DNA of 58,306 nt, counting the filler, from Dugesia japonica (Eukaryota): the NCBI GenBank assembly GCA_001938525.1. It is 5 parts of 5 records of this genome, joined end to end, with 100 filler letters (N's around TTAATTAATTAA, not from the genome) between each part and the next. Parts side by side here need not be neighbours in the genome. Positions count along the whole stretch, not along the records: positions 8,812 to 20,017 come from MQRL01593220.1; 4 more parts are not named here. One strand, written 5' to 3'. The notes below the pieces were generated by a model, which did not search any database, was not told where the DNA came from, and worked only from the letters and a program-made list of their open reading frames with translations. Shown here piece after piece: positions 10,650 to 13,017 of this stretch (its first letter is position 1; each line of letters starts with the position of its first letter). Made by a program: the position numbers and the translations under genes.

Positions 10650-12474
10650 CTTGTAAACGGTTATTCCTTGCAAATTGAATATATCTGTTTATACTCGTTC
10701 ATCATTGGGATATTGTTGTGNNNNNNNNNNNNNNNNNNNNNNNNNNNNNNNNNNNNNNNNNNNNNNNNNNNNNNNNNNNNNNNNNNCGAGGAGCATCGGA
10801 GCACAAGGTTTTGCCCGGAGCTAGAGCGGAGATTGGAGCACAATAATTTTGATTGCTCCACTGCTCTAGTTTATTAAATAAAATACAATACGTAATAGAT
10901 CTACTAAATGTACTAAAGTAGATACACTAAACTAGTACATACAAACATTGCGTACATATCTAAAAATCTTTTCCATTTTTTGCTTTGATGTTATTTTGTT
11001 TCATTTAATTTGGAGTGTTTATCGATTTTGCGGTTATGGTATATTTTTTTGTCGGGAAAACCGAAAAAAAAATTTGAGAACTTACTTATTCATTTAAATT
11101 GATTAATTATATTATTTAAATAAATTTAAGCAAGAATATACGAGTCTAATTTGCATTCAAAATGGTATCCTCCATGCAAAAACGCAAAGAGAATCTTTTT
11201 AAAAACACGCATTTTTAGCTGGAGTTTATGTCGATCCACACTATATGATTTAACTAAGTTCATTGCTAAAATTGAAAGCTAAAGAAAGACTCTTAAATAT
11301 CGCAAAACGCTTGAGAAACAAAATATTCTTCGAAGTTTCAATAAATTGCAACCGAGTAAAGAACTATAATTAGTAACAGTCAAATCAGAAAGACGAGTAA
11401 ATAATTATGCCACTGCCGTAGGCATAAATTCTTCAGAAGATGATGATTTTGAGAAAGAGCTAGAAAAGCAGGAAAAACGACGAAAAATCTCAGAAATACA
11501 TAATTCCAACGAAGAAGAGTTTGAACCATTTTTTATGAAGATTGTGAAATCATGGAGGGCTCAAAGTTAAATCAGTCTTCGAGCAATTTATAATTATCCG
11601 GAACGAATTGAAATGCATGTTGAGTTATATCCAGTATGCCCACTACTCAAGCAAGTATCGAGAGACTATTTCAGCTCTAAAATTAATATTAAAAGAAAAT
11701 TAATAATGATAGAAGACTGAATCTCAGCAGTTTTATTTCATAGAGTAAACAACGAAAATTGATATCGTTTATATGTAATTATTACATATATGTAACAACT
11801 TCAAATAAAGTTTATTTAGTTAATTTAAAATAAAAAATTTTTTTTCTTTCAACTTTTGTGTATGTGTAATTTTTAAAAAATTGTCCTTGGAGCATCAAGC
11901 GGAGCCGGTGCCAGGTCGTAGTGACGGAGCGGAGCACCATAAAAAATTGACTGCTCCAAAGCCCTACTTTTGTGGTAACATCGTGAAATGCATGAGATAA
12001 AAATTCCTTATTGTGAGGAAATGCCTGACGAGAAAGATTATCAACTACGGTTTGATCTCGAAGATTCTTGAATAAAATCAAATAGTGTACATTAAGATTA
12101 AGTGTACGATGCATCCCGCCTTCACGAAAAAGATTTTGTGTCATGAAGATTACAATTATATTACCACGATGAGCAGTTTTTGTAAAGAGATTATTAAAAT
12201 CGGTTTGTTTATATGCCTCTTGATACAAGTCATCGATTACAATAACATCACATGCCTTTAATCGTTTGTTTCAATCATCATCAAATCCATTGATTATTAA
12301 TTTNCAAAATTCTTCATCAGTCAATCCAGATTCACCACCACCATCTTGATAACAATAAATATGTTTGAACTTTATCTGACACAATTTGCTTTGCAGTAAT
12401 TTACAAACAAAATACGTTTTTCCACATACACTTAGACCAACTATTTGAAAAACCCCATTGTTTTGTAGTGACAT
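10650..12474 (-). pseudogene. A32/FtsK-like DNA packaging ATPase, split by a hAT insertion
   Basis: Walker A IVGLSVCGKT and Walker B VIVIDDL; LFTKTAHRGNIIVIFMTQNLF; RTLNLNVHYLILFKNLRD. Interrupted at 11967 (HDVTTK) and resumes below 10720 (QQYPNDERV*TDIF..ITVYKP). Confidence 0.85.
10786..11966 (+). mobile_element. Internally deleted hAT transposon
   Basis: GGAGC-rich subterminal repeats at both ends; right end ...GCTCCAAAGCCCTA. Transposase C-terminal remnants AGVYVDPHY and PTTQASIER..FSALKLIL (hAT dimerisation motif). The left TIR is hidden in Ns. Confidence 0.7.
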
Positions 12475-12503
12475 TTTTATGTACATAGCAATAATTGGTT
12501 TTG

Positions 12504-12531
12504 TTTATATGAAGCATGTAAACGTATAAAA
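12504..12531. promoter_or_regulatory. Back-to-back TATA boxes between the ATPase and TBP-like genes
   Basis: TATAAA on minus (12509-12504) and TATAAAA on plus (12525-12531), each ~30-40 bp from its gene start. Confidence 0.45.
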
Positions 12532-12555
12532 GCCTATAACTGTTGTTCTACAAAC

Positions 12556-13017
12556 ATTCCAACAATAGTATCAAATATTAATTACAGGGTTAATGTAGTT
12601 AATTATAAATCTCATCTTCTACAATTCAATACTTGGAAAAAACCTCGACAATGTGTACAAAAGATGGATGATTTTACGATAGTTATATTTGAATAGGGTA
12701 AATTTTAAATCATGTGTTGTAAGAGACCGATTATTAATAAACCAATTACTTGCAAAAATCTCCAATTCCAAGTAGACTATATTCAATCAATTACAGTGAC
12801 ATGTAATCTCGGAAAACCAGAGAATTTATATAGATCAAATGGCGATGATGATTGTTGGTTTGAACCTGAATTATTTCCTGCATTACGTATCAATAAATAT
12901 AAACCGTTATGTGTTAATGTTTTTACTAGTAGGAAAGTTGTAATTCTTGGACTAAAGTCACTGGATTATCATGAGATCATAAATGAAATTACAAAATATA
13001 TATTGGAAATGGTTTAA
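12556..13017 (+). pseudogene. Intronless, divergent TATA-binding-protein-like gene
   Basis: Repeat 1 remnant IVSNINY...TIVIFE*GKFKIM. Repeat 2 QSITVTCNLG...FEPELFPALRINKYKPLCVNVFTSRKVVILGLKS (cf. TBP YEPELFPGL...LIF.SGKVVLTGAK). One stop and one frameshift. Confidence 0.75.

What the first reader, a model, noticed from the sequence alone, without database searches (positions are those of the whole stretch)
12474..13017. Virus-like element encoding its own minimal TBP, head-to-head with a packaging ATPase
Seen: an intronless ~150-codon gene with two TBP repeat remnants (IFE*GKFKIM; FEPELFPAL...VNVFTSRKVVILG) starts ~80 bp from a Polinton-type A32 ATPase. The intergenic gap holds one TATA box on each strand. 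Established: TBP homologues occur in large DNA viruses but are not a core Polinton gene. Inference: a small endogenous virus lineage may carry a divergent TBP to redirect host Pol II to its own promoters.
Basis: partly seen in the sequence, partly recalled or inferred. Interest (0 to 1): 0.75.

Follow-up and report, generated by a model that had tools for sequence, protein, structure and literature searches.

The report
Virus-like transposon carries a minimal TBP
This is a broken remnant of a virus-like Maverick transposon whose intact relatives encode a stripped-down TATA-binding protein and carry an unusual TATAAAC box before packaging and capsid genes, which likely lets the element switch on those genes itself using host RNA polymerase II.

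Summary
Real, but this copy is dead. Window 12565-13017(+) is a 150-codon TBP-like gene with two stops (not one), 90 nt head-to-head from a packaging ATPase split by a 1.25-kb insertion; an integrase remnant follows. It belongs to a large family of about 150-aa TBPs (51 metagenome loci; 20 carry Maverick core genes). An intact relative folds as a full TBP saddle (Z 14). The family forms its own clade, apart from the eukaryotic TBPs sampled. It has lost most of both N-lobe helices and one of four DNA-intercalating Phe, but keeps the two TFIIB-contact glutamates. Head-to-head layout is not conserved (0 of 11 loci). The two TATA boxes differ in kind: TATAAAC before the ATPase matches the top de novo motif in relatives (26 of 48 packaging, capsid and other genes; 1 of 40 TBP/SSB-like genes, which have canonical TATA plus initiator). 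Best reading: an early-made viral TBP drives TATAAAC late promoters via host TFIIB (inferred, about 0.6). Untested: binding, timing, TBP-less controls. This scan reported the same system earlier on three other genomes; in print I found only a figure-legend label.

The parts
12565..13017 (+). Broken mini-TBP gene, 150 codons, in-frame stops at 12694-12696 and 12706-12708, no ATG at the homologous start
12525..12532 (+). Canonical TATA box (TATAAAAG), 40 nt before the homologous TBP start; early-type promoter by analogy with relatives
12502..12509 (-). TATAAACA box, 35 nt before the ATPase ATG; the lineage's putative late promoter box
11967..12474 (-). A32-like packaging ATPase, N-terminal part, broken (stop at codon 68, one N, altered Walker A)
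   Evidence: intact relative L010 hits Pfam Pox_A32 at E 2e-6
10721..11966 (.). 1246-nt multicopy insertion inside the ATPase, with GGAGC-rich ends; DNA-transposon-like (hAT-like by eye, no Pfam support); left end masked by N
   Evidence: a contig joins 10720 to 11967; reads run on into other flanks at 11965
10650..10718 (-). C-terminal piece of the same ATPase (about residues 185-207 of relatives)
10636..10642 (-). Second TATAAAC box at the ATPase 3' end, upstream of the next gene, placed as in L022
10304..10542 (-). Frameshifted remnant of the about 105-aa gene that follows the ATPase in relatives
9723..9992 (-). Remnant of the N-terminal part of the Maverick rve integrase
   Evidence: relative L007 hits Pfam rve at E 1e-12

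Best explanation
The locus is a decayed fragment of a Maverick/Polinton element whose intact relatives encode a minimal TBP that likely acts as a late-gene switch, predicted to be made early from an ordinary host-type promoter and then to bind the TATAAAC box before packaging and capsid genes and recruit host TFIIB and Pol II. Shown: the broken state of this copy, the Maverick gene context of relatives, the family's own clade, the residue pattern and the two promoter classes. Predicted: the TBP fold (AlphaFold model of an intact relative). Inferred: early versus late timing, binding to TATAAAC, use of host TFIIB, and escape from Mot1, TAF1 and TFIIA through loss of the N-lobe helices.
For: Context: 20 of 51 loci, and 11 of 16 loci of 3 kb or more, carry at least one Maverick core gene. 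The capsid model (pLDDT 63) matches double-jelly-roll capsids, best PBCV-1 at E 8e-15. Fold: P0007 model pLDDT 95; 148 of 151 residues align to yeast TBP, Z 14.1, rmsd 2.3; the first non-TBP row is Z 6.9. Tree of 62 rows: the window protein lies in a 22-row mini clade (99/93), which with 21 longer forms is split from eukaryotic, archaeal and full-length element TBPs at 100/100. Residues in 139 non-redundant members: both TFIIB-contact glutamates kept (97% and 99%); three of four Phe kept (99-100%), the first replaced by Pro (98%); most of helix H1 and nearly all of helix H2 of the N-lobe deleted; several DNA-facing positions fixed as new residues. PMC7221094 (passages and section 12) says those glutamates bind TFIIB, are only about 40% conserved in other viral TBPs, and that the N-lobe H2 basic patch binds TFIIA, Mot1, Brf1/2 and TAF1. 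No TFIIB hit among 76 neighbour proteins scanned. Promoters: with no classes imposed, ATAAACA (31 of 99 upstream regions, 1.5 expected) and TATAAAC (27 of 99, 1.1 expected) are the top 7-mers. TATAAAC lies at -60 to -21 in 26 of 48 ATPase, capsid and other genes against 1 of 40 TBP/SSB-like genes (Fisher p 7e-8). Those 40 have canonical TATA (23) and an initiator-like TCAY(T/A) (30 of 40 against 2 of 48), spaced 30-32 nt apart in 17 of 20. 46 of 98 TATAAAC sites precede an ORF start, against 8 of 150 for TATAAAA. Mavericks with a full-length TBP lack the pattern (0 of 19 sites).
Against: No binding, expression or timing data. No TBP-less Maverick of the same lineage was found as a control. The box is patchy among structural genes: major capsid 3 of 6, minor capsid 1 of 6, PX 1 of 5, protease 1 of 3, integrase 0 of 1. 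It also precedes non-structural DEDD-like (5 of 8) and LRR (4 of 5) genes. The gene classes were drawn after I had seen the upstream sequences and an earlier scan note naming the motif. The spacing script chose the TATA-initiator pair nearest 30 nt. Some boxes lie in the coding end of the upstream gene, where Tyr-Lys-Gln codons spell TATAAACA. One close ATPase (L055, about 71% identical) has TATAAAAA instead. Host TBP has been crystallised on a C(-25) TATA variant (PDB 1qn3), so it can bind such a box. The full-TBP contrast is one lineage from one assembly. No locus is a complete element, so an element-encoded TFIIB is not excluded.
Confidence: 0.6

Rival explanations
1. The TATAAAC box is read by host TBP/TFIID or by another element-encoded factor. 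The mini-TBP is a general booster or replacement TBP without special sequence preference, keeping viral transcription going when host TBP is limiting or regulated.
For: Host TBP binds a C(-25) variant (PDB 1qn3 title; listed as a Hoogsteen-pair structure in PMC8643651). Loss of the regulatory N-lobe surface is explained by escape from control alone. Zinc-finger proteins occur in some loci.
Against: After TATAAA the next base is C in 27 of 30 cases before one gene class and in 1 of 15 before TBP/SSB-like genes. The box is absent from elements with a full-length TBP. The DNA-facing surface carries fixed new residues.
Confidence: 0.25
2. The mini-TBP is a decoy or dominant-negative: it keeps the TFIIB stirrup to sequester host TFIIB or block host TATA promoters (host shut-off), and the box is unrelated to it.
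For: The TFIIB glutamates are near-invariant while the co-activator surface and one intercalating Phe are lost.
Against: Three Phe and the whole ten-stranded saddle are kept, which a pure TFIIB sponge would not need. The element's own genes appear to depend on host Pol II: TATA plus initiator spacing and a GT-AG intron-like segment in the SSB-like gene.
Confidence: 0.1
3. The gene is a processed pseudogene or degenerate paralogue of host TBP that lies beside a Maverick ATPase by chance.
For: This copy is broken and intronless. The host's own TBP and TRF2 were not in the tree.
Against: Its nearest relatives are 45-66% identical element-type proteins, while animal TBPs score only about 55-61 bits against the family profile. 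It nests in the mini clade. Relatives sit among Maverick genes in at least 16 of 35 clusters at 90% identity.
Confidence: 0.02

Closest known systems
Mavericks/Polintons (adintoviruses; PMC8502044, PMC8097293)
   Same: A32-like ATPase, rve integrase, double-jelly-roll major capsid, minor capsid, adenain-like protease and PolB-motif polymerase in relatives, in Maverick-like order.
   Different: TBP is not among the eight core genes. [quoted passage not shown]
Cellular TBP (eukaryotic and archaeal; Pfam PF00352)
   Same: Full two-lobed saddle (Z 14.1), C-lobe EPELFP stirrup, three of four Phe.
   Different: About 150 rather than 180 residues; most of both N-lobe helices deleted; first Phe replaced by Pro; fixed changes on the DNA-facing strands; separate clade.
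Beta/gammaherpesvirus viral TBP (KSHV ORF24, EBV BcRF1, HCMV UL87)
   Same: Works-like analogue: a viral TBP mimic reading a variant TATA box in late promoters to use host Pol II (abstracts).
   Different: ORF24 is one of six viral factors and binds the Pol II CTD through an extra N-terminal domain. The Maverick protein has no extra domain, keeps the TFIIB glutamates, and its box varies at position 7 (TATAAAC), not TATT.
TBP homologues of large DNA viruses (Nucleocytoviricota, mirusviruses)
   Same: Virus-encoded TBP fold (BFVD hits from E 1e-8, 11-20% identity).
   Different: Those mostly come with a viral TFIIB and poorly conserved TFIIB-contact residues. No TFIIB was seen here among 76 neighbour proteins, and the structural match to cellular TBP is closer (22-33% identity).

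Membership tests
TBP family (PF00352) | Profile match above the curated cut-off | tested here: met
   Window protein 36 bits against 22.9; intact relatives 49 and 63 bits
TBP family (PF00352) | Two-lobed saddle fold | tested here: met
   Model of intact relative P0007, pLDDT 95; Z 14.1, rmsd 2.3 over 148 residues. The window's own copy was not folded.
TBP family (PF00352) | Four DNA-intercalating phenylalanines (roles recalled) | tested here: not met
   Three kept at 99-100%, the first replaced by Pro in 98% of 139
TBP family (PF00352) | Two C-lobe glutamates contacting TFIIB | tested here: met
   97% and 99% of 139; role from PMC7221094
Eukaryotic cellular TBP | N-lobe helix H2 basic patch for TFIIA, Mot1, Brf, TAF1 | tested here: not met
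   Columns gapped in 86-99% of mini members; no such helix in the model
Eukaryotic cellular TBP | Nests with host TBP in a tree | tested here: not met
   100/100 split from 13 eukaryotic rows, mostly nematode; host TBP and TRF2 not sampled
TBP family (PF00352) | Binds and bends TATA DNA, nucleates a pre-initiation complex | not testable with these tools
   Needs biochemistry
Maverick/Polinton | Packaging ATPase and rve integrase | tested here: met
   Both present as remnants in the window and intact in relatives
Maverick/Polinton | Major and minor capsid, protease | tested here: met
   In relatives L007, L017, L019, L022; not found beside this window copy
Maverick/Polinton | Protein-primed PolB | tested here: inconclusive
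   L007 and L017 ORFs show motif A- and B-like strings and weak similarity to a Pfam-confirmed PolB, but no Pfam or PDB hit of their own
Maverick/Polinton | [quoted passage not shown] | not testable with these tools
   No complete element among the loci; the window copy is a fragment
Adintovirus (definition in 10.1101/2024.03.25.586562) | OTU-PolB, hexon recognisable by reciprocal BLAST to reference genomes, integrase chromodomain | not tested
   Reference sequences not held; definition read in passages
Herpesvirus vTBP/vPIC | N-terminal Pol II CTD-binding domain and five partner proteins | tested here: not met
   Family members are about 145-165 aa, wholly TBP fold; a search of longer proteins gave 2 family members of 28 hits

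The most novel reading that the evidence does not exclude
A widespread Maverick lineage has evolved a one-protein late-transcription switch: a 150-residue TBP with altered specificity that reads TATAAAC, plugs straight into host TFIIB and cannot be bound by host TBP regulators. It evolved by stepwise shrinkage (full-length, then longer, then mini forms) and gives these elements a true early-to-late viral cascade.
Probability: 0.5. Interest if true: 0.82.

Novelty: new variant of a known kind. Interest (0 to 1): 0.64.

Why it matters
Whether animal Mavericks are transposons or autonomous viruses is a long-standing question, and how they time capsid expression is unknown. A dedicated TBP plus a matching box before packaging genes gives a directly testable model of a temporal cascade without a helper virus. 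The protein would also be a natural minimal TBP, showing which surfaces are enough for initiation, and a possible orthogonal TBP-promoter pair for eukaryotic cells. The window's own copy is only a fossil marker of the system.

Tried and rejected
No whole genome is held for this window. Viral-contig scans found no mini-TBP or close Maverick loci; ATPase scans gave only distant loci at about 25% identity, so no TBP-less control was obtained. L056 and L057 first looked like TBP-less controls; I rejected that once the same assembly proved to hold Mavericks with full-length TBP. Head-to-head layout as a conserved feature was rejected. One TATA per strand as evidence in itself was rejected. RNA: no RNA holder was listed. 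In three raw RNA runs 15, 357 and 23 reads laid, mostly under 95% alike, on both strands, with no start or end peaks; this says nothing for or against expression. A hAT identity for the insertion was not confirmed by Pfam. The phage collection gave only a haloarchaeal virus TBP. Atlas taxa were uninformative for host range. A paper search with a guessed host group gave nothing on TBP; the host remains undetermined. No complex prediction was run, since no eukaryotic TFIIB was available. Literature searches for Maverick TBP or its promoter; word look-ups gave 0 TBP mentions in PMC11161782, PMC8097293, PMC12220804, 10.1101/2024.03.25.586562 and 10.64898/2026.06.19.733378, and none in the one supplement of PMC8502044 held. 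Figures, bioRxiv supplements, Repbase and subscription journals could not be seen and may annotate this gene.

Full report
Observation. The window is AT-rich eukaryotic DNA (GC 17-40% per kb); no whole genome is held and the host was not determined. The frame 12565-13014(+) has 150 codons, in-frame stops at 12694-12696 and 12706-12708, and no ATG where relatives begin. Read through with X, it matches Pfam TBP at E 6e-9, and the top 35 of 37 PDB sequence hits are TBPs or TBP fusions. The ATPase ATG is at 12474(-), so the gap is 90 nt. A TATAWA on both strands occurs in 628 of 5338 90-nt stretches of the window and in 18.5% of shuffles of the gap, so that detail alone is ordinary.

The locus. 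On the minus strand the order is ATPase (12474-11967), a 1246-nt insertion, the ATPase C-terminus (10718-10650), a frameshifted small gene (10542-10304) and an integrase remnant (9992-9723). This is the ATPase, small gene, integrase order of intact relatives. A contig of DNA run X1 joins 10720 to 11967, so uninterrupted copies exist, and reads at the insertion's end run into other flanks. Nothing element-like was found at 13000-17000. The copy is a dead fragment.

The family. A direct search gave 21 relatives among 30 candidates, 34-66% identical. A profile gave 697 clusters at 90% identity with E up to 1e-5 among 4129 candidates, and 57 clusters at 50% identity with E up to 1e-30 (581 up to 1e-10, some of them cellular TBP). 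A metagenome scan gave 51 loci from 151 pattern matches. Of these, 41 hold a TBP-matching ORF of 130 aa or more (an upper bound for intact genes, since L024 is split), 20 carry at least one Maverick core gene, and so do 11 of the 16 loci of 3 kb or more. Pfam confirms integrase, A32 ATPase and adenain-like protease. The capsid model (pLDDT 63) matches double-jelly-roll capsids. The polymerase ORF has only motif-level support. Of 11 loci with both ATPase and TBP, some near-identical, 10 are same-strand and 1 is divergent at 1.7 kb: the gene is conserved, the head-to-head layout is not.

Fold and origin. The model of intact relative P0007 has pLDDT 95 and aligns to cellular TBPs over 148 of 151 residues (Z 14.1, rmsd 2.3; first non-TBP Z 6.9); large-virus TBPs match less well. 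In a 62-row tree the window protein sits in a mini clade (22 rows, 99/93). Mini plus 21 longer forms are split at 100/100 from 13 eukaryotic, 2 archaeal-type and 4 full-length TBPs, 3 of the last from G001 contigs. The rows were a hand-picked subset of the proteins held; the root is arbitrary, and the host's TBP and TRF2 were absent. A host pseudogene is very unlikely, but the donor is not determined.

What is kept and lost. Across 139 non-redundant mini members aligned to a plant-type TBP, both TFIIB-contact glutamates are kept (97%, 99%), three of four Phe are kept, and the first Phe is Pro in 98%. Most of N-lobe helix H1 and nearly all of H2 are gapped, and several DNA-facing positions are fixed as new residues. 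PMC7221094 (passages and section 12) assigns the glutamates to TFIIB, reports about 40% conservation in other viral TBPs, which mostly have their own TFIIB, and places TFIIA, Mot1, Brf and TAF1 contacts on the N-lobe basic patch. No TFIIB was found among 76 neighbour proteins, though no element is complete. From recall, the N-lobe reads the 3' half of the TATA box, where TATAAAC departs from consensus. PDB 1qn3 is TBP on a C(-25) variant and is listed as holding a Hoogsteen pair (PMC8643651, passages); by recalled numbering this variant is TATAAAC, so host TBP can bind it, probably less well.

Promoters. An earlier scan note (e1-7879962) named TATAAAC, and I then tested it. In 99 de-duplicated upstream regions, ATAAACA (31; 1.5 expected) and TATAAAC (27; 1.1 expected) are the top 7-mers with no classes imposed. 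TATAAAC lies at -60 to -21 in 26 of 48 ATPase, capsid, protease, integrase, DEDD-like and LRR regions (shuffled mean 0.5, maximum 4) and in 1 of 40 TBP/SSB-like regions. The latter have canonical TATA (23 of 40) and an initiator-like motif (30 of 40 against 2 of 48), 30-32 nt apart in 17 of 20 (the script chose the pair nearest 30). Eleven further regions (PolB 1, short SSB-like 10) had no TATAAAC and were in neither class. Over all 51 loci, not de-duplicated, 46 of 98 TATAAAC sites precede an ORF start, against 8 of 150 TATAAAA, 6 of 54 TATAAAG and 18 of 130 TATAAAT. The window keeps both kinds back to back: TATAAACA 35 nt before the ATPase and TATAAAAG 40 nt before TBP. In 61.6 kb of G001 Maverick contigs, some with a full-length TBP, 0 of 19 TATAAAC sites are so placed.

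Against. The classes were drawn after seeing the data. The box is rare before minor capsid (1 of 6), PX (1 of 5) and protease (1 of 3). Some boxes overlap coding ends. L055, a close ATPase, has TATAAAAA. No TBP-less control was found. RNA reads were few, divergent and on both strands.

Mechanism. Most likely (0.6), host TFIID transcribes TBP and replication genes first. The mini-TBP then binds TATAAAC, recruits host TFIIB and Pol II, and evades TBP regulators, turning on packaging and capsid genes. Every functional step is inferred. Rivals: a non-selective booster with the box read by the host or another factor (0.25), a TFIIB decoy (0.1), a host pseudogene (0.02).

Novelty. It works like herpesvirus vTBP (abstracts) but is not a member of that system. 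It is a TBP-fold protein failing two canonical features, in a Maverick. In print I found only the legend label in PMC8502044 (passages, section 10, one supplement) and its preprint (passages). Seven searches and five word look-ups found no description of the family or the box; figures and some supplements were not visible. This scan reported the same system on three other genomes; those notes are leads, not independent support. Verdict: new variant of a known kind, interest 0.64.

Noticed in passing
window 30800-36000 (+): A second, different decayed Maverick-like element: PolB-like fragments with a LAGLIDADG-type insertion (Pfam E 1e-4) and a protease-like remnant at 35733-35945. No TBP match near it.
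   Followed up: partly
L065, L066, L067, L068 (genome G001): A bacterial assembly holds eukaryotic Maverick contigs with a full-length two-repeat TBP (183-188 aa) near the protease, next to unknown 250-270 aa genes; they lack the TATAAAC pattern. Possibly the ancestral state.
   Followed up: partly
L025:667-1236, L007:1788-2135 and kin: TBP's usual neighbours resemble large-virus single-strand DNA-binding proteins (atlas leads Pox_I3, DUF2738, low recognition). The shorter family starts after a GT-AG intron-like segment in several loci.
   Followed up: partly
P0301: A 357-aa protein joining mini-TBP to the SSB-like neighbour; a true fusion or a read-through artefact.
   Followed up: no
L017:225-719, L001:4008-4316, L026:1918-3327, L024:1710-2168, L051:2-358: Accessory genes in these elements: ubiquitin-conjugating E2, dual-specificity phosphatase, LRR protein, RING finger, phospholipase A2-like domain.
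   Followed up: no
window 9650-13150, run X1: Summed contig depth reaches thousands to tens of thousands over ATPase, gap and TBP, and one 236-nt contig spans 12419-12653 with 4 differences, so the element appears highly multicopy in organism A; depth is not a copy number.
   Followed up: partly
window 25395-26372 (-): Reverse transcriptase and GIY-YIG fragments, like a Penelope-type retroelement remnant.
   Followed up: no
window 42958-45174: A long imperfect inverted repeat pair (several arms, 76-89% complementary), probably a foldback or inverted duplication.
   Followed up: no
window 8712-8811, 20018-20117, 36748-36847, 46470-46569: Four identical N44-TTAATTAATTAA-N44 blocks, likely an assembly or masking artefact.
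   Followed up: no
window 51018-51338 (+): Ankyrin-repeat exon of a probable host gene (Pfam E 4e-19).
   Followed up: no
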